Shown here one piece after another: positions 3,094-57,026 of a stretch of DNA of 64,000 nucleotides (positions are counted from its first letter, which is position 1; every line of letters begins with the position of its first letter). The DNA comes from Tagaea sp. GTDB lineage: Bacteria; Pseudomonadota; Alphaproteobacteria; CACIAM-22H2. The position numbers and the translations under genes are program-made. The stretch is from contig JAYRYC010000005.1 in the NCBI GenBank assembly GCA_041917215.1, forward strand, positions 103,687-167,686, given 5' to 3'. Below the pieces are notes generated by a model. The model saw only the letters and a list, made by a program, of their open reading frames with translations. It made no database searches and had not been told where the DNA came from.

Positions 3094-3779
3094 GGCAAGC
3101 GCTCCAGCCCCATCCGCCAGAACGAGGTTTCCAGGCGGCAGGCACGATCAAAGATCGTCGCGAGCGATTCGAAGCGACCGCCGCCGGCGCGCGTATACCA
3201 CAGGCGGTCGACGAAATCGGCCTTGCCGCGCGCGATGCGGCGATAATCGTCGCTCGAATAGGCGGCGATCCAATCGTTGTAGCGATTGCCTTCTTCGCGC
3301 CGCCAATCGGCTTCCTCGAGGCGCATCGCGATCTCGGCATAGCCCACGGTGCAAGGCACGAGCGCCGTCACGAGATCGAGGATATCGCCCTGCATGCCCG
3401 CCTCGAGCACGAAGCGCGTATAGGCGATGGTCGCCTCGGCTTCCTCGTAGGTCTCGATCTCGTCTTTCGAGATGCCCCAGCTTTCGCAATACTTCACGTG
3501 CATCGCCATCTCACCGTCGAGAATGGCTTTGACGCTGTTATTGACGAAAATCATGTCGGCGAGATTCTCGGCCTTATAGACCGCCAGCGCCCAGGCGCGC
3601 GCGAACTGCACCAGGAACAGATAGTCCTGGATCAGATAATGGCGGAAGCTTTCGACCGGCAGCGTGCCGTCGCCAAGCCCCCGCGTGAACGGATGCGTCG
3701 TATACGCGTCCCAGGAATCGCGGCACGCGTCGCGCAGGCGCTCGAACAGACCGTCCTTCTGCCACAGCACGACGCTCAT
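3090..3779 (-). CDS. TenA/thiaminase-II family protein (heme-oxygenase-like fold)
   Basis: The inner ATG at 3779 starts [62 protein letters not shown]. The HPF-...-YLIQDY-FL-F-RA pattern is TenA-like. Its start overlaps the iscX stop by 4 nt (ATGA) and its stop overlaps the mnmA start. Confidence 0.65.
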
Positions 3780-3979
3780 CGCCGCTCCTCCAGCCACGCC
3801 ATCTGGATCGCTTCCAGGATCTTCTCGTTCGACTTGTTCGGGTCGTCCTCGAAGCCGGGCAGCGCCTGGACCCATTTCCACAAATCGGTGAAGCGCAAAT
3901 TCTCGACGTCGGCGTCGGGATGCGCCTCCTCCAACTCGATGGCGATGTCGTTCACATCGGTCCAGCGCAGCTTCTTCAT
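3776..3979 (-). CDS. iscX: Fe-S cluster assembly protein IscX (YfhJ)
   Basis: The 67-aa protein MKKLRWTDVNDIAIELEEAHPDADVENLRFTDLWKWVQALPGFEDDPNKSNEKILEAIQMAWLEE aligns along its whole length with E. coli IscX (..KWTD..EIGEAL...PD.DP..VRFTD...W...L..FDDDP..SNEKILEAI...WL.E). Confidence 0.85.
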   Translation of the reverse strand: MKKLRWTDVNDIAIELEEAHPDADVENLRFTDLWKWVQALPGFEDDPNKSNEKILEAIQMAWLEERR

Positions 3980-3984
3980 CGCAT

Positions 3985-4323
3985 TCAGGCCTTATCGACC
4001 ATCATGTTGCGCGTGGCCGTGGGCAGTGCCACCGTCAAGCCATCGAGCTCTTCGGTCATCGTGATCTGGCAGCCCAGGCGCGAGGTATGCGTCAGGCCGA
4101 AGGCGAGATCGAGCATGTCCTCCTCGTCCTCCGAGGCTTCGGGCAAGCGCTCGTAATCGTCCTTGTCGACGACGATGTGGCAGGTCGAGCAGGCGAGCGA
4201 ACCTTCGCACGCACCCTCGAGCGGCACGTCGTTGCGATGCGCGATTTCGAGCACCGAGAGGCCGACCGGGGCCTCCACTTCCTTCTTCGTGCCGTCGGGA
4301 TAGACGAAAAACATCTTGGGCAT
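3985..4323 (-). CDS. fdx: ISC-type [2Fe-2S] ferredoxin (adrenodoxin-like Fdx)
   Basis: The protein has the motifs [11 protein letters not shown] and GCQI, a C-x5-C-x2-C ... C spacing, and sits in the fdx position between hscA and iscX. Confidence 0.9.
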
Positions 4324-4349
4324 GGGCTTCTCTTCTTTTCCTGAAGTTC

Positions 4350-6212
4350 CTATCCGCCGATATCGGCGACGGCACGGCCCGCGAGCGCTTTGCGGATTCC
4401 GCGATCCATCCGCCGCTCGGCGAAGATCTTGGTGCGGTGTTCGAGTTCTTCGGCAGCACCTTGAATTGCTGCACGATCGGTGCCGGACATCGCGCGCTCG
4501 ACGATTTCGATCGTTTCGTCGATACGCGCGCGTTCTTCGGCCGACAGAAGATCGGCATCGACCGCCAGCGCGGCCTGCACCGCGTTGACGCCGCGGCGCG
4601 CTTCGACGCGCGCTTCGGTCAACAAGCGGCGCTCCATGTCGTCCTGCGCGTTGTCGATCGACGCGCGCAGCATCGCGGCCATTTCGTCCTCGGTCAGGCC
4701 ATAGGACGGCTTCACCTCGATGCGCGATTCAACGCCAGTCGTCGCTTCCTTGGCCGAGACGGTCAGCAGGCCGTCGGCATCGACCGAGAACGTCACGCGG
4801 ATACGCGCGGCACCCGCGACCATCGGCGGGATCCCGTCGAGTTCGAAGCGTGCGAGGGAACGGCATTGATCGACCATCTCGCGCTCGCCCTGCACGACAT
4901 GCAGCGCCATGGCGTTCTGGCCGTCTTGATAGGTCGTGAATTCCTGTGCGCGGCTGACCGGGATCGGCGTGTTGCGCTCGACCACTTTTTCGACGATGCC
5001 GCCCATCGTTTCCAAGCCCAGCGACAGCGGCAGCACGTCAAGCAGCAGCGTATCCGAGCCGGCGGTCAACGCTTCGGCCTGCAACGCCGCCCCCACCGCG
5101 ACGACTTCGTCGGGATCGATATCCGTAAGCGGCGGCTTGCCGAAGAATTCGGCCACGCGCTGGCGCACCAAGGGTACACGCGTCGATCCGCCGACGAGCA
5201 CCACGCCGCCAAGTTCGCCGGGCGCCACGCCCGCATCTTCCAGCGTCGCGGCGGCGATTTGGATCGTCCGCTCGACCAAGGGGGCGATCAGCGTTTCGAA
5301 TTGGGCGCGCGTGAGCTTGTGCTCGCTTTCGGCTTCGCCTAGATCGAGGAAGCCGTCCCAATCGTCGCGATCTGTAAGGCATTCCTTGGCGAGGCGCGCG
5401 GTGACGAGCGCTTGCTTCACATGATCGCGGTCGAGCTTGTCGCCGCGTTCGCCCATGAAGCGTTGCGCGATCGCGTGATCGAAATCGTCCCCGCCCAAGG
5501 CCGCATCGCCGCCGGTCGCGAGGACTTGGAACACGCCGCGCTCCAAGCGCAGCAGCGAGAAATCGAACGTGCCGCCACCCAGGTCGTAGACGGCGTAAAG
5601 ACCTTCGGCCTGGCTATCGAGACCGTAAGCGAGGGCGGCCGCCGTCGGCTCGGCAACGAGGCGCAACACTTCGAGACCGGCAAGGCGGGCCGCATCGCGC
5701 GTCGCGGTACGCGCGGCGTCGTCGAAATAGGCGGGCACGGTCACGACCGCGCGATCGACGGCGCGGCCGAGCGCGATTTCCGCGCGCTGCTTCACCGCGC
5801 GCAAGATGTCCGCGCTGATTTCGACCGGCGTGAGCAAGCGTTCGCCGATTTTGAGACGCGCCATCCCGCCTTCGGCCGGCGGTCCCAATTCGTAGGGCAA
5901 CGCGTCGCCGAGCTTGGCGAGTTCGTCGGGCCCGCGCCCCATCAAACGCTTGATCGACGAGACGACGACTTCCGGATTGTCGAGCAATTCGCGGCGCGCG
6001 AGTTCGCCGACCAGCGGATCGCCTTCGTCGAAATAGGCGACGACCGACGGCACCAGCCCCACGCCGCGGGCATCGCGCACGATCTCGGCCTTCTGGTCGC
6101 GCGAAAACGCGACCACCGAGTTGGTCGTGCCGAGATCGATGCCGACCGCGAGACCCTTTTCGGTCTCGTGGGGCAGCGGCGTCTCGCCCGGTTCGTGAAT
6201 CTGCAGCAACAT
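4350..6212 (-). CDS. hscA: Fe-S cluster chaperone HscA (Hsp70 family)
   Basis: The inner ATG at 6212 gives [10 protein letters not shown]..., matching the E. coli HscA start MALLQISEPG. The protein has the [17 protein letters not shown] and GGDDFD motifs and a C-terminal HscA-specific lid. The track ORF extends 9 codons further upstream to 6239. Confidence 0.9.
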
Positions 6213-33359: not shown

Positions 33360-34101
33360 AAATGCCCGTCCCTTGAAGCGGGCGGACTATCGCATGCGGC
33401 TTCGCGAGTCGTCCAGAATGGTGGCCGAATCCGCCGCAGCCGGCGTTTCGATTCCAGCCTGCGCCCAAGATGACGGATACAAGCGTTTGGGGGAGTCGCA
33501 TCCCCGTTTCGGGTCCGCCAAAGCCGGATCGCGCGCGACGCGGCACCGCAAATTCCTCGCGTCGCGCGGCCAATGCCGTTTTTCAATGAATTTCAGAATT
33601 ATACATTTTACCCGGTGTAGAATTAGGCACCTGAAATCGTTTGAAAAAATCCGAAATATGACGGTCTTGCAACAGTCGATGCTGCACTGCACACTAAGCC
33701 TCGGACATTTTCGAACCCATCGTTAATGCATTGATTTAGCGATCAAAATAAGCGCTTGACGGTTTTCGCCCTGGATTTTAGCGGTTTCCCGTCGGCAGAC
33801 CCCCTGTATCTAGTTGTCGTATCTACATTTTGTGGTTCTTGCCGTGATCTCGCCAAAATCCTGTTGCGGGTGAATCCGGGGTTTGTTCAACATTTGGTAA
33901 CGAGCTTCGCCATCCACCACGAAATCTAGTGAGCGGTTTTCACCCGCGACATTCGGGATCGGGGGACGAGTCGGCGAAGACGGGGGCTGATTCTGCGCGT
34001 TGTCCGGCAACGGGTCACGCGCAAACGGCTCAAGCAATCAGGCGATGAAGCGGGCCGAGAGAGGCCGCGCACATCGGGATCGAAGACGGCTGGAGGCTAG
34101 G

Positions 34102-54648: not shown

Positions 54649-55137
54649 ATGACAAAACCGCGCGATATCGCTTCGATCCGGGCCGGATTGCACCGCGCAT
54701 TGGGTCTGCTGCCCGAAGACAGCATCGCCGCCGCCACGGGCAAATCGGCCTCGCTGTTCCGTAAATGCGCGGACCCCGACAACAAGCGCCATCGCCTGCA
54801 AGCCGAGGATGCCGTGGCGCTCGACGCCGCCTGCGTGGTCGCGGGCGAACGCGCGCATATCCTCGAATCCTATCGTCAGGCGCTGGATGCGCGCGTGGCG
54901 GAGCTGGGCGGACCTTGCGCGCATCGCGCGGCCGACCCGTTGCACCGCGTGGCGCAAGCCACACGCGAATTGGGTGCGGTCGCCGGCGCCGTCGCGGAAG
55001 CCGAGAAGCCGCCCTCGCCCGAGACGACGCAGCGCATCGCCAATCTGGTCGATCGCGCGCTCGATACGCTCACGCATCTCAAAAACGATCTGCGCGAAAC
55101 CGCGCGCGACGCGGGCGCCGTGCAAGCCGCCGAGTGA
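54649..55137 (+). CDS. Hypothetical protein (162 aa), no recognisable domain
   Basis: The ATG at 54649 is preceded by GAGGGGGA. It is in frame inside a spurious 383-aa track ORF that is antisense to the thiolase gene. The protein is Ala/Arg-rich and helical-looking: MTKPRDIASIRAGLHRALGLLPEDS.... Confidence 0.4.
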   Translation: MTKPRDIASIRAGLHRALGLLPEDSIAAATGKSASLFRKCADPDNKRHRLQAEDAVALDAACVVAGERAHILESYRQALDARVAELGGPCAHRAADPLHRVAQATRELGAVAGAVAEAEKPPSPETTQRIANLVDRALDTLTHLKNDLRETARDAGAVQAAE

Positions 55138-55154
55138 CGCGCACTAATTGTCGA

Positions 55155-55418
55155 TCATCGTTTTTTGGACTTGTCGTTTTCTGGCGAGTCATCGCCGGCT
55201 CGCCAACCTCTGATTTTTACGTGAGGCTTTTTAAGCAAGCCGCTCTGCGTAGCTTTCTTACTTACGACAGCCTTCTTCTTCGCAGCTGCCTTCTTCTTGC
55301 GCTGCTTCATTAGACCCTTCGTGTACAGGTGAGCATATGGATCATCTGACACAAAACCCATTTTGGGATTTCCAAACTCTTTGGAATGACCACCTAAATA
55401 GTATCCTTTCTTACTCAT
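55155..55418 (-). CDS. Small lysine-rich hypothetical protein encoded in an AT-rich islet
   Basis: The protein is MSKKGYYLGGHSKEFGNPKMGFVSDDPYAHLYTKGLMKQRKKKAAAKKKAVVSKKATQSGLLKKPHVKIRGWRAGDDSPENDKSKKR. Its 5' half and promoter region have far lower GC than the surrounding DNA. Confidence 0.4.
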   Translation of the reverse strand: MSKKGYYLGGHSKEFGNPKMGFVSDDPYAHLYTKGLMKQRKKKAAAKKKAVVSKKATQSGLLKKPHVKIRGWRAGDDSPENDKSKKR

Positions 55419-55616
55419 TGATTGCCCCCCATGATCATCATAATTGTATTGAACAAAAATATTGTCACTTGGAATTTATAAAAAAATTTTAGATTATTAT
55501 ACAAAATCCACCGAAATTTATTCAGGCCATTAGAAATACTGAGATTTTCTTGACGGGGCCCCCGCCCCCGGCCAAGTTCTGCCGCCATTGAGCGTAAGAC
55601 GGCGGGGGCTTCGGGC

Positions 55617-57026
55617 ATGTCGATTCGGGTATTTGCGTTGGCGGCGATCGGGGCCGTTTTGCCGGGGACCGTGTTCGCGGCCGATTTGAATGGTGCGGCG
55701 CTCGCTTGGCCGTGGGCCATTCCATTCTGCGGCCTGCTGCTGTCGATCGCCATTCTGCCGCTGGCGGCGCCGTCGCTTTGGCATCACCACTACGGCAAAA
55801 TCGCGCTGGCCTGGGCGCTGGCGATCATCCTGCCCTTCGTCGCCTCGTTCGGGTTCGGCACCGCCTTCGCCGCGATCTGGCACACGATGGCGGCCGAATA
55901 CATCCCCTTCCTGATTTTGCTCGGCTCACTGTTCACAATCGCGGGCGGCGTCTACGTGAAGGGCAATCTGCACGGCAGCCCGAAGACAAACACGGCCCTG
56001 CTGGCCGTGGGCACGGGCATCGCCAGCGTCACCGGGACCACGGGCGCCGCGATGCTGCTGATCCGCCCCGTCTTGCGCGCCAACGACGAGCGCCGTCATA
56101 ACGCGCATGTCGTGATCTTCTTCATCTTTCTGGTCGCGAATATCGGCGGCAGCTTGACGCCGCTGGGCGATCCGCCGCTGTTCCTCGGCTTCCTGAAGGG
56201 CGTCGGCTTCTTCTGGCCGACGGTCCATCTGTTCCTGCCGATGCTGACGGTGACCGTAATCCTGCTCGTCGCGTTCTACGCGCTCGATAGCTGGTTCTAT
56301 CATCGCGACGAAAGCTTCAAGGCGAAATACGATCCCACGCCGGACGCGCCGCTGTCGATCGAAGGCAAGGTCAATATCCTGCTGCTCGGCGGCGTCGTCG
56401 CCGCCGTGCTGATGTCGGGCCTGTGGAAGCCCGGCATCTCGTGGAACATCGCGGGCACGGTCATCGAGTTGCAGGGTGTCGCGCGCGACGTGATCCTGCT
56501 GGCGCTCGCATGGCTGTCGCTCAAAATCACGCCGCCGGGCTGCCGCGAGGCGAACGCGTTCTCCTGGGGCCCCATCCAGGAAGTGGCGAAACTGTTCTTC
56601 GGCATCTTCGTCACCATCGTGCCGGTGATCGCGATGCTGAAGGCCGGCAAGGACGGCGCTTTCGCGGGCGTCGTCGCCGCGGTGACGAATCCCGACGGCT
56701 CGCCCAATGCGGCGATGTATTTCTGGCTGACCGGCATTCTGTCGAGCTTCCTCGACAACGCGCCCACCTATCTCGTGTTCTTCAACACGGCGGGCGGCGA
56801 TCCCGCGACGCTGATGGGCCCGCTCGCCACCACGCTCGCCGCGATTTCGGCGGGCGCGGTGTTCATGGGGGCCAACACCTATATCGGCAACGCGCCGAAC
56901 TTCATGGTCAAGGCGGTGGCGGAGGAGAACGGCGTGAAGATGCCGAGCTTCTTCGGCTACATGCTGTGGTCGATCGCGTTCCTGATCCCGTGCTTCATTC
57001 TGGTCGACGTGATCTTCTTCCTATGA
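55617..57026 (+). CDS. NhaD/ArsB-superfamily ion transporter (Na+/H+ antiporter NhaD-like)
   Basis: The 469-aa polytopic membrane protein has duplicated halves with the GNIGGSLTPLGDPP and GNAPNF motifs typical of this permease family. Confidence 0.7.
   Translation: MSIRVFALAAIGAVLPGTVFAADLNGAALAWPWAIPFCGLLLSIAILPLAAPSLWHHHYGKIALAWALAIILPFVASFGFGTAFAAIWHTMAAEYIPFLILLGSLFTIAGGVYVKGNLHGSPKTNTALLAVGTGIASVTGTTGAAMLLIRPVLRANDERRHNAHVVIFFIFLVANIGGSLTPLGDPPLFLGFLKGVGFFWPTVHLFLPMLTVTVILLVAFYALDSWFYHRDESFKAKYDPTPDAPLSIEGKVNILLLGGVVAAVLMSGLWKPGISWNIAGTVIELQGVARDVILLALAWLSLKITPPGCREANAFSWGPIQEVAKLFFGIFVTIVPVIAMLKAGKDGAFAGVVAAVTNPDGSPNAAMYFWLTGILSSFLDNAPTYLVFFNTAGGDPATLMGPLATTLAAISAGAVFMGANTYIGNAPNFMVKAVAEENGVKMPSFFGYMLWSIAFLIPCFILVDVIFFL

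What the first reader, a model, noticed from the sequence alone, without database searches (positions are those of the whole stretch)
55141..55560. AT-rich islet, roughly 420 bp at about 40% GC in a 66% GC genome, carrying a small Lys-rich ORF
There is an abrupt compositional break between the end of the 162-aa hypothetical gene (54649-55137) and the transporter gene. The stretch 55420-55520 (..ttgtattgaacaaaaatattgtcacttggaatttataaaaaaattttagattattatacaaaat..) is extremely AT-rich. The 87-aa ORF at 55155-55418 has an AT-rich 5' half (MSKKGYYLGGHSKEFGNPKMGFVSDDPYAHLYTKGLM) and a more host-like 3' half. This looks like a small horizontally acquired insertion, such as a toxin or antitoxin fragment, a phage remnant or a nucleoid-protein target. 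It could also be a strong UP-element promoter driving the transporter gene. I cannot place the protein in any family.
Basis: seen in the sequence. Interest (0 to 1): 0.55.

Follow-up and report, generated by a model that had tools for sequence, protein, structure and literature searches.

The report
Foreign mini-gene replacing a bicarbonate-transporter operon
The AT-rich islet is about 0.4 kb of foreign DNA found in only one strain lineage, where it replaced an ancestral two-gene transporter operon; it carries one intact gene for a tiny, very basic protein of unknown function from a rare, unnamed family seen mostly on mobile elements, which makes it an ordinary kind of event with a mildly curious passenger.

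Summary
Window 55141-55560 has 40% GC against 65% and is the strongest compositional outlier in the 64 kb. The 87-aa ORF lies on the minus strand (55155-55418).

Sister genomes settle the origin:
- Strains with an identical CII-like neighbour have only a 93-bp spacer here.
- Two outgroup lineages about 91% identical, one including Tagaea sp., carry an sbtA plus P-II gene pair at this spot.

So roughly 405 bp of foreign DNA (about 55143-55548) replaced sbtA/P-II in this lineage. There is no target duplication, terminal repeat or transposase remnant.

The fragment holds one gene, a Shine-Dalgarno sequence and a 130-bp upstream block at 28% GC. The native 68 bp upstream of the transporter gene are untouched, so the islet is not that gene's ancestral promoter.

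The protein belongs to a real family under purifying selection (dN/dS 0.02-0.11). The family is tiny: 14 clusters among 5.8 billion proteins, with no Pfam, NCBIfam, PHROG, PADLOC or PDB match. Members sit inside IS1-family elements, in a phage-like contig, and beside a PLD-SNF2 helicase and DUF932. The protein has pI 10.3, a Lys/Ala tail and is predicted disordered. Nucleic-acid binding is an inference only.

Verdict: an ordinary horizontally acquired ORFan islet, of modest interest.

The parts
55143..55548 (.). Foreign segment of about 405 bp. The left edge is ambiguous within 55138-55146. The maximum extent, 55138-55548, is 411 bp.
   Evidence: In the alignment of filled and empty sites, everything between ...GCCGCCGA and CTTGACGGGG... 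differs: 29 bp in empty-site strains against 415 bp here. The stop codon and the next bases (GAGTGACGC) match the sbtA/P-II state, so the foreign DNA starts a few bases after the CII-like stop. GC is 0.40. There is no other copy in the window and no DNA match in phages or plasmids.
55155..55418 (-). Gene for an 87-aa basic protein (pI 10.3; 20 Lys and 4 Arg). It has an N-terminal motif MSKKGxYxGGHSxExGxPKxGxxxDDPxAH, a Lys/Ala-rich tail, a KIRGWR motif, and a unique 14-residue C-terminal extension.
   Evidence: The ORF is listed. Homologues come, with alignments. The N-terminal 31 codons have dN/dS of 0.02-0.11 with synonymous sites saturated. GC3 is 0.49 against host 0.77-0.89.
55425..55430 (-). 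Shine-Dalgarno-like GGGGGG, 6 nt upstream of the ATG.
   Evidence: Read directly from the sequence. A G-rich block plus CAATGAG at the start codon is shared with homologous loci.
55440..55468 (-). Sigma-70-like promoter match for the small gene: GTGACA, 17 nt, AATTAT.
   Evidence: It is a consensus match only: 1 site found against 0.5 expected in shuffles, so it is not statistically meaningful on its own.
55419..55548 (.). Non-coding AT-rich block of 130 bp (about 28% GC) upstream of the small gene. It abuts the transporter gene's native upstream region.
   Evidence: It has no Rfam family and no homology to the regions upstream of other family members beyond the SD and start.
55549..55616 (+). 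Native 68-bp region upstream of the transporter gene, starting with CTTGACGG. It is retained unchanged and is not part of the foreign DNA.
   Evidence: It is identical in the window and the empty-site strains, and homologous in the sbtA/P-II strains.
55135..55142 (+). Left junction: the stop codon of the CII-like gene plus CGCGC, which is of the sbtA/P-II-state type (GAG TGA CGC...) and not the empty-site type (GAA TAG CCG...).

Best explanation
The islet is a horizontally acquired, self-contained mini-locus. It consists of about 405 bp of low-GC foreign DNA that carries one intact small gene on the minus strand, with its own ribosome-binding site and an AT-rich, promoter-like upstream block.

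Shown:
- Relatives (Tagaea-like Rhodospirillaceae) have, between the CII-like gene and the CitMHS_2 transporter gene, either an sbtA/P-II operon (both outgroup lineages) or a 93-bp spacer (closest strains).
- The window lineage has the foreign fragment instead. It keeps the sbtA/P-II-type left junction and the native 68 bp upstream of the transporter gene.

Inferred:
- The fragment replaced sbtA/P-II by illegitimate recombination, since there is no duplication, terminal repeat or transposase.
- The empty state arose separately, by a microhomology deletion of sbtA/P-II.

The gene encodes a member of a very rare, unnamed family of small basic proteins under purifying selection. Other members lie inside IS1-family insertion sequences, between the transposase gene and the right terminal repeat. 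Others lie in a phage-like contig, or next to a PLD-SNF2 helicase and a DUF932 gene.

Inferred function, with low confidence: the conserved 31-residue N-terminal motif is a binding module, and the histone-H1-like Lys/Ala tail gives non-specific nucleic-acid affinity. That would make the protein an accessory DNA- or RNA-binding factor of mobile elements. In this host, the AT-rich unit would be a natural target for MucR-type silencing.
For: Composition: the islet is the lowest-GC segment of the window, with foreign codon usage.

Presence and absence:
- The 87-aa protein is a singleton cluster seen only on the source genome's contig and two Logan contigs. The neighbouring CII-like and transporter proteins have 19 and 33 members at 90% identity or more.
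- Seven contigs with an identical CII-like protein have a 93-bp spacer.
- Eight loci from two lineages about 91% identical, including Tagaea sp. CACIAM 22H2 and a 5.3-Mb genome, have P-II plus Sbt_1 at the site.

Junctions: the left junction is GAGTGACGC, as in the sbtA/P-II state. The right junction lies directly at CTTGACGG, which all states share.

The gene is real:
- The family has 14 clusters.
- Positions Y7, G9, P18 and P27 are invariant, and several further N-terminal positions are at least 90% conserved.
- dN/dS is 0.02-0.11.

Mobile contexts:
- In L004 the ATG overlaps the stop codon of an IS1-family transposase gene.
- L003 and L106 keep transposase-tail remnants upstream of the gene.
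- Similarity ends at TGA-CCCACTAC(C) with three different flanks. The same terminal sequence, TTCAAACTGACCCACTACC, ends an annotated Mesorhizobium IS1-family element.
- P0007 lies between the terminase and portal modules of a phage-like contig.
- P0004 lies between a PLD-SNF2 helicase and a TIGR03299/DUF932 gene.

Protein character: pI 10.29 with 24 Lys/Arg, and predicted disordered (pLDDT 58.8).

Silencing: MucR as a silencer of AT-rich foreign DNA in alpha-proteobacteria is described in PMC9410896.
Against: - No donor was found. The closest relatives are only about 50% identical.
- No mobility hallmark explains how the fragment arrived.
- Flank phylogeny places the window within the diversity of empty-site strains: 98.3% identity to L086, while L086 and L087 are 97.7% and 94.3% identical to each other. 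Replacement of sbtA/P-II, rather than insertion into an already empty site, therefore rests mainly on about 5 informative junction bases.
- The promoter match is no better than chance, and no terminator was found.
- Expression is untested.
- The function is pure inference. There is no family, fold or solved-structure match.
- The conserved N-terminal motif is modelled with low confidence in both AlphaFold runs.
- The phage link rests on one contig pair, and none of three scans of viral contigs found a member.
Confidence: 0.7

Rival explanations
1. The AT-rich DNA is the native promoter or UP element of the CitMHS_2 transporter gene, and the ORF is incidental.
For: The AT-rich block ends exactly at a TTGACG hexamer, which resembles a -35 element, 62-67 bp upstream of the transporter gene's ATG. 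It therefore occupies the position of an UP element.
Against: Strains with an identical CII-like protein, flanks 97-98% identical in DNA and 95-99% identical transporters lack the AT-rich DNA entirely, yet keep the 68-bp upstream region. The ORF is conserved at the protein level in unrelated loci. No sigma-70-like site for the plus strand was found in either state.
Confidence: 0.03
2. The islet is ancestral. Sister strains lost it by deletion, and the outgroups replaced it with sbtA/P-II.
For: Deletions are common. The empty state itself looks like a deletion product.
Against: The segment has foreign composition and codon usage in a 65% GC genome. Two separate outgroup lineages share sbtA/P-II with host-like GC. 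The empty-site spacer retains sequence homologous to the sbtA-proximal spacer, not to the islet.
Confidence: 0.04
3. The fragment inserted into an already empty 93-bp spacer, replacing 29 bp. The match of its first bases to the sbtA/P-II-type junction is coincidence.
For: Flanks are 98.3-98.4% identical to empty-site strain L086, and the window nests within empty-site diversity. The 68-bp upstream region plus the first 32 nt of the transporter gene are identical to the empty-site strains.
Against: The foreign DNA would have to recreate the same final Glu codon class, an in-frame stop at the same position, and CGC after it, all matching the outgroup state. The chance of that is roughly 1 in 1000 or less by simple counting. 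Recombination tracts near the site weaken the flank phylogeny.
Confidence: 0.15
4. The fragment was delivered by an IS1-family element carrying the small gene. The transposase part and adjacent sbtA/P-II were then lost by IS-mediated deletion, leaving only the passenger gene.
For: Three independent loci have the gene inside an IS1-family element. Two of them are truncated on the transposase side, leaving just the transposase tail, the small gene and the right end.
Against: The window has no transposase remnant and no match to the IS terminal sequence at up to 3 mismatches. Its upstream block is unrelated to the transposase tail. The window protein is only 45-53% identical to the IS-borne copies.
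Confidence: 0.1
5. The ORF is a non-functional relic of foreign DNA that happens to remain open in this lineage.
For: It occurs in a single lineage with no within-lineage variation to test selection. There is no significant promoter or terminator signal. It has a unique 14-residue C-terminal extension not seen in relatives.
Against: The full-length ORF keeps all invariant family positions, the C-terminal KIRGWR motif, a strong SD and correct spacing. Across the family, selection is strongly purifying.
Confidence: 0.15
6. It is a toxin or antitoxin fragment.
For: It is a small gene on a foreign islet.
Against: There is no partner ORF in the 411 bp. The only other ORF of 40 aa or more that lies within the segment is antisense to the small gene, and its conservation was not tested. 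There is no hit in Pfam, NCBIfam or PADLOC. Relatives are not in two-gene pairs of a conserved type.
Confidence: 0.03

Closest known systems
Phage 'morons' and, more generally, strain-specific ORFan islets acquired by horizontal transfer
   Same: It is a single extra gene with its own upstream control region and deviant (AT-rich) composition. It sits between two genes that are adjacent or differently filled in close relatives. One family member sits on the opposite strand between the phage terminase and portal modules.
   Different: The window locus is not a prophage. Its neighbours are a thiolase, a response regulator and transporters, plus one lone CII-like gene that is conserved across all the Tagaea-like relatives sampled. 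No terminator was found, and the promoter match is at chance level. The fragment replaced an operon rather than being added.
Passenger (accessory) genes of IS1-family insertion sequences ('transporter IS')
   Same: In L003, L004/L005 and L106 the homologous small gene lies between the IS1-family transposase gene and the right terminal sequence ...CAAACTGACCCACTACC. Its start overlaps the transposase stop (ATGA) and its last codons lie inside the terminal sequence.
   Different: The window copy has no transposase, no terminal sequence and no target duplication. Related IS1-family elements on plasmids lack this gene, and one carries a different 77-aa hydrophobic ORF in the same slot. No full-length element with both ends was recovered.
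Bacterial histone-H1-like Lys/Ala-rich proteins, such as Hc1/Hc2 of Chlamydia, AlgP, and the C-terminal tails of mycobacterial HupB and PhaF (named from my own knowledge)
   Same: It has a KKKAAAKKKA-type tail, a very high pI and predicted disorder. These features are associated with non-specific DNA binding in those proteins.
   Different: No Pfam or NCBIfam model of those families matches any of the members scanned. The conserved part of this family is the N-terminal 31-residue Gly/Pro/aromatic motif, which those proteins lack. Other subfamilies replace the Lys/Ala tail with a helical hairpin.
Targets of xenogeneic silencing by MucR in alpha-proteobacteria (PMC9410896)
   Same: It is AT-rich foreign DNA with promoter-like sequence in a high-GC alpha-proteobacterium.
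   Different: Nothing about binding was tested. Whether this organism has MucR was not checked.

Membership tests
Horizontally acquired strain-specific islet | Absent from closely related genomes at an otherwise syntenic site | tested here: met
   Seven empty-site contigs have an identical CII-like protein, and flanks are 97-98% identical. Eight outgroup loci have sbtA/P-II instead.
Horizontally acquired strain-specific islet | Composition and codon usage deviate from the host | tested here: met
   GC is 0.405 against 0.651 (-6.6 SD). GC3 is 0.49 against 0.77-0.89. The expected GC with host codons is 0.558 against 0.456 observed.
Phage moron | Inserted between genes of a prophage or phage genome | tested here: not met
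   The neighbours are housekeeping genes. The only phage-like gene is a lone CII-like regulator present in all the Tagaea-like relatives sampled.
Phage moron | Own promoter and terminator | tested here: inconclusive
   There is one sigma-70-like match upstream, against 0.5 expected by chance. There is no dedicated terminator. The only hairpin lies in host DNA inside the CII-like gene, and its fold z-score is 0.44.
IS1-family insertion sequence (or fragment) | DDE transposase gene or remnant | tested here: not met
   tblastn of two IS1-family transposases against the window gave only chance hits with E above 4.
IS1-family insertion sequence (or fragment) | Terminal repeat (here ...CAAACTGACCCACTACC) and target-site duplication | tested here: not met
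   There were 0 matches at up to 3 mismatches in the window. There are no flanking direct or inverted repeats beyond chance. The junction is a 29-bp to 415-bp replacement.
Small basic protein family defined here (N-terminal motif MSK[KR]GxYxGGHS...P...P[FY]) | Conserved N-terminal 31-residue motif with invariant Y7, G9, P18, P27 | tested here: met
   Alignments A3, A5 and A6. The profile E-value is 1.9e-25 for the window protein.
Histone H1-like / Hc1 / Hc2 nucleoid proteins | Match to the family's sequence models | tested here: not met
   No such Pfam or NCBIfam hit was found, even at E up to 5, for the 9 members scanned. Only the Lys/Ala composition is similar.
KGG stress-protein repeat (YciG-like) | Profile similarity to the KGG repeat | tested here: not met
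   hhalign probability was 2.4% against a YciG sequence recalled from memory, and there was no Pfam PF10685 hit.
Toxin-antitoxin module | Two-gene operon with recognisable toxin or antitoxin domains | tested here: not met
   It is a single gene with no Pfam, NCBIfam or PADLOC hit, and relatives have no conserved partner.
Integron gene cassette | attC recombination site downstream of a promoterless gene | tested here: not met
   Only about 10-17 bp of foreign DNA follow the stop codon, and no imperfect inverted repeat is present there. The fragment instead carries 130 bp upstream of the gene.
Native promoter / UP element of the transporter gene | Conservation with the downstream gene in relatives | tested here: not met
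   The AT-rich DNA is absent from all relatives, while the 68-bp proximal region is conserved.
MucR/H-NS-type silencing target | Silencer occupancy and repression | not testable with these tools
   Only the AT-richness, which is a prerequisite, is shown (PMC9410896).
Known RNA family | Rfam covariance-model match | tested here: not met
   The only hit is a chance snoRNA match, at E=0.82 and 21.6 bits against a gathering score of 43.

The most novel reading that the evidence does not exclude
The 87-aa protein may define an undescribed family of small nucleic-acid-binding proteins borne on mobile elements. Each member would have a conserved 31-residue N-terminal module plus an interchangeable basic tail. 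In one IS1 sub-lineage the gene is translationally coupled to the transposase gene and overlaps the terminal repeat, which would make it an IS1 accessory factor with no reported counterpart that I could find. Elsewhere it would travel as a minimal module of promoter plus gene. In the host it could act as a counter-silencer or nucleoid modulator for AT-rich foreign DNA, including its own promoter.
Probability: 0.15. Interest if true: 0.55.

Novelty: new member of a known kind. Interest (0 to 1): 0.3.

Why it matters
As a genome feature it is a clean, well-bounded example of how a high-GC alpha-proteobacterium swaps content at one intergenic site. The site has three allelic states: an ancestral sbtA/P-II bicarbonate-transporter operon, a deletion, and a 0.4-kb foreign mini-gene. 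That is useful for annotation, because the gene is real and should be called on the minus strand. It is also useful for population genomics of this group.

The protein family is the only part with discovery potential. It is extremely rare, unnamed and under strong purifying selection. It is physically embedded in IS1-family elements in some genomes. If it proves to be a DNA-binding accessory factor, it would add a new small-protein class to mobile-element biology. Nothing here suggests a new kind of system.

Tried and rejected
- Family and defence libraries gave nothing for the 87-aa protein: Pfam, NCBIfam, PHROGs and PADLOC. Pfam scanned member by member for 9 relatives also gave nothing.
- PDB sequence searches with two family profiles found only chance hits.
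- AlphaFold2 of the window protein gave pLDDT 58.8 and pTM 0.17, with no fold.
- AlphaFold2 of subfamily member P0008 gave a confident C-terminal helical hairpin that the window protein lacks, while the shared N-terminal motif stayed at pLDDT around 50. Foldseek of that model against PDB and BFVD found nothing at E of 0.001 or below.
- blastn and tblastn of the islet and the protein against phage and plasmid collections found no match.
- Three viral-contig scans with three subfamily profiles found no member. A fourth attempt failed because the alignment was too diverse.
- The genome-contig scan with the transporter protein found only relatives at 68% identity or below, without synteny. It was not useful for the sister-genome test, which I solved instead through exact-protein look-ups.
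- Rfam found nothing around the islet.
- RNA folds of the region downstream of the small gene and of the transporter leader were no better than shuffles.
- A search for terminal repeats or target duplications found nothing beyond chance.
- The idea that P0008 occurs in several different neighbourhoods was rejected, because the contigs are overlapping pieces of one locus.
- Similarity to the KGG/YciG repeat was rejected.
- Literature searches for IS1-family passenger genes and for ISMhu11 found nothing relevant.
Full report
**1. Observation.** The compositional break is real and is the most extreme in the window. Coordinates 55141-55560 have 40.5% GC against 65.1% overall. No other 420-bp window is as low (mean 65.1%, SD 3.8%). 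The 127 bp at 55419-55545 have 27.6% GC, and all 127-bp windows at or below 30% GC in the 64 kb fall here.

The 87-aa ORF exists as quoted but lies on the minus strand, 55155-55418. Its low GC is not a by-product of its lysines. GC3 is 0.49 against 0.77-0.89 in five neighbouring genes. The same protein in host codon usage would be 55.8% GC, against 45.6% observed.

**2. Surroundings.** On the left is a 162-aa gene (54649-55137, plus strand) that matches Phage_CP76, the CII-like regulators (Pfam E=2e-10; PHROG 101). Beyond it are a thiolase and a response regulator. On the right is a CitMHS_2 transporter gene (55617-57026). The area is not a prophage. A tRNA-Thr lies 2.7 kb away and is not adjacent.

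**3. Sister genomes.** The 87-aa protein is a singleton cluster. It was seen on the source genome's 461,637-bp contig and on two Logan contigs. The CII-like and transporter proteins belong to clusters at 90% identity with 19 and 33 members. One member is named Tagaea sp. CACIAM 22H2, of the Rhodospirillaceae.

Contigs encoding the identical CII-like protein show two states. One is the window state (L089 and L091, the same contigs as L001 and L002). The other is an empty state in seven contigs, where the CII-like stop codon is followed by only 93 bp before the transporter gene's ATG.

Contigs encoding CII-like proteins 94% identical or less show a third state: a P-II gene (99-100 aa) and an Sbt_1 (SbtA-type) gene on the minus strand in a 1405-1427-bp spacer. 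This state includes the Tagaea MAG and a 5.3-Mb genome.

Flank DNA identities group the window with the empty-site strains at 97-98%. The two sbtA/P-II lineages are each about 91% identical to that group and about 90% identical to each other. Because both outgroups carry it, sbtA/P-II is the ancestral state by parsimony.

**4. Junctions.** In the alignment of filled and empty sites, everything is identical up to ...GCCGCCGA and again from CTTGACGGGG... onwards. In between, the empty state has 29 bp and the window has 415 bp.
- The window's left junction reads GAG TGA CGC. This is the same as in the sbtA/P-II state (GAG TGA CGCCGCG) and differs from the empty state (GAA TAG CCG).
- The empty-state sequence GCCGCCGAATAG resembles GCGCCGAATATAG, which in the sbtA/P-II state lies just beside the sbtA start codon. 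The rest of the empty spacer resembles the sbtA-proximal spacer. I infer that the empty state is a microhomology deletion of the operon.
- The window state therefore most likely derives from an sbtA/P-II-bearing ancestor by replacement. The alternative is insertion into an already empty spacer with a coincidental junction. I keep it as a rival at about 0.15, because the flank phylogeny nests the window among empty-site strains.
- There is no target duplication, terminal inverted repeat, transposase remnant or IS end.
- The 68 bp upstream of the transporter gene's ATG are untouched.

**5. Content of the foreign fragment.** It holds only about 10-17 bp beyond the stop codon, the 264-bp gene, and 130 bp upstream.
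- A GGGGGG Shine-Dalgarno sequence lies 6 nt before the ATG.
- One sigma-70-like match, GTGACA-17-AATTAT at 55468-55440 on the minus strand, is present. However, 0.5 such matches are expected by chance, so it is not evidence on its own.
- No terminator belongs to the fragment. The nearest hairpin is host DNA inside the CII-like gene, and the fold there is no better than shuffled sequence.
- No Rfam family matches.
- No second copy exists in the window, and no DNA or protein match exists in the phage or plasmid collections.

**6. The protein family.** A word-based search of 5.8 billion proteins found two relatives. An exhaustive profile search of 1.84 billion representatives found seven proteins. 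A metagenome scan added one locus. A second search with a 10-member profile gave 14 clusters in all. All are 71-107 aa, none is named, and none has a Pfam domain.
- They share the N-terminal motif MSK[KR]GxY[IL]GGHSxx[FY]G[NS]Px.G[YF]...P[FY]. Positions Y7, G9, P18 and P27 are invariant.
- Downstream they differ. The window's subfamily has a Lys/Ala tail ending in K.(K/R)(I/V)R.W(R/K). Another subfamily has a basic linker plus a helical hairpin. A third has a basic linker plus GRSAAQRYAERL.
- Across the first 31 codons, synonymous sites are saturated while dN stays at 0.01-0.3. Where computable, dN/dS is 0.02-0.11. These are real protein-coding genes, and the window copy keeps every conserved feature.
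- The window protein has pI 10.29, with 24 Lys/Arg and 7 Asp/Glu.

**7. Where relatives live.**
- **(a) Inside IS1-family elements.** In L004 the ATG overlaps the stop codon (ATGA) of a DDE transposase gene. That transposase matches NCBIfam transpos_IS1 and is 63% identical to annotated IS1-family transposases on alpha-proteobacterial plasmids. L003 and L106 keep only the last 80-115 bp of the transposase gene in front of the small gene. Downstream, L003, L005 and L106 stay similar for only 8-9 bp after the stop (TGA CCCACTAC[C]) and then have three unrelated flanks. The same sequence, TTCAAACTGACCCACTACC, lies 272 bp after the transposase stop in the Mesorhizobium element, and similarity to the small-gene loci ends there too. 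The small gene therefore occupies the slot between the transposase gene and the right end, and its last codons lie within the terminal sequence. The Mesorhizobium element has a different 77-aa hydrophobic ORF in that slot.
- **(b) A phage-like contig.** L111 and L112 carry a terminase large subunit (phrog_38, E=7.5e-73) and a portal gene. The small gene is on the opposite strand, in an accessory stretch that also holds an IS1595 transposase.
- **(c) Next to a helicase.** P0004 lies between a 1125-aa PLD-SNF2 helicase (PADLOC HKD+Snf2; DrmD-like) and a TIGR03299/DUF932 phage/plasmid-like gene.
- **(d) Next to a restriction-modification fragment.** P0006 follows a type I S-subunit fragment.

In L003 the gene lies in a 3-kb stretch of lower GC, next to a Schlafen/AlbA_2 gene. 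Viral-contig scans found no member, so the family is linked to mobile DNA in general rather than to phages specifically.

**8. Function.** No sequence family, solved structure or fold could be attached. AlphaFold2 predicts the window protein as essentially disordered (pLDDT 58.8). In the better model of P0008, only the subfamily-specific helical hairpin is confident, and the shared motif stays at pLDDT around 50.

My committed reading is an inference from composition and context. The protein would be a small nucleic-acid-binding accessory protein of mobile elements. The conserved N-terminal motif would be the specific interaction module, and the Lys/Ala tail would provide non-specific affinity, as in histone-H1-like bacterial proteins (own knowledge). 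I put the probability at about 0.4. In this host, the AT-rich unit is the kind of DNA that MucR silences in alpha-proteobacteria (PMC9410896). That was not tested.

**9. Comparison and novelty.** The feature behaves like a moron or ORFan islet. It fails the moron definition on prophage location and on a terminator. It fails IS membership on every structural criterion. Its protein fails membership in the H1-like, KGG and toxin-antitoxin families. It is a new member of a known kind, a strain-specific horizontally acquired mini-locus. The mildly novel element is the unnamed protein family and its embedding in an IS1 sub-lineage.

**10. Verdict.** Interest is modest, at 0.3.

Noticed in passing
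L096-L101, L109, L110 (about 3490-4770 in each locus); same site as window 55138-55616: Relatives carry a convergent P-II (SbtB-like, 99-100 aa) plus Sbt_1 (SbtA-type, 324 aa) gene pair between the CII-like and transporter genes. This lineage lost it, and no other copy exists in the 64-kb window. The empty-site allele looks like a microhomology deletion of this operon.
   Followed up: partly
window 55649-55697: There are nine window-specific substitutions within 49 bp of the transporter gene's signal-peptide region: eight synonymous and one Trp/Gly change. The flanking sequence is identical to empty-site strain L086. This looks like a short recombination or gene-conversion tract from an unsampled relative, about 100 bp from the islet.
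   Followed up: partly
window 54649-55137 (+): A lone Phage_CP76/CII-like regulator gene (Pfam E=2e-10; PHROG 101) is conserved next to the thiolase gene in all the Tagaea-like relatives sampled. It has host-like GC and lies outside any prophage. It is absent next to the transporter gene in the 80 more distant genomes fetched.
   Followed up: partly
L107 2320-2599 (Mesorhizobium loti plasmid CP050295.1): An annotated IS1-family element has 272 bp between its transposase stop and the terminal sequence TTCAAACTGACCCACTACC. This stretch holds an unannotated 77-aa hydrophobic ORF (2338-2571), in the slot where other copies carry the small basic protein gene. The slot therefore looks like a variable cargo position in this IS1 sub-lineage.
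   Followed up: partly
L107 about 2280-2300 against L004 786-805: The Mesorhizobium transposase ends ...EARADRKRGPYAKLSAA. In L004 the transposase ends ...EARADGGAQ and the overlapping small ORF begins MSKKGLY. The short K[RK]G.Y resemblance at the same position could mean that the small ORF's start derives from a transposase tail, or it could be chance. No transposase fusion carrying the motif was found in the exhaustive search.
   Followed up: no
L115 2420-2641 and 3353-3574: A 222-bp direct repeat (98% identical) brackets a 711-bp unit that holds a 112-aa ORF and family member P0008. The second copy overlaps the 3' end of a 175-aa gene, so this looks like an integration-type duplication of a gene end or a tandem duplication.
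   Followed up: no
L111 5979-8249: In the phage-like contig, an IS1595-family transposase gene sits between the portal and terminase modules, within 1.1 kb of family member P0007.
   Followed up: no
window 33580-33770: This is the second-lowest GC stretch of the window (100-bp minimum 0.35). It is an intergenic region upstream of a 1283-aa ORF starting at 34000 and looks like an ordinary AT-rich control region.
   Followed up: no
window 55549-55616: The conserved region upstream of the transporter gene begins with TTGACGG and contains GC-rich complementary runs (GGGGCCCCCGCCCCCGG ... CGGCGGGGGC). Its predicted fold is no more stable than shuffled sequence (z=0.05), and there is no Rfam match.
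   Followed up: partly
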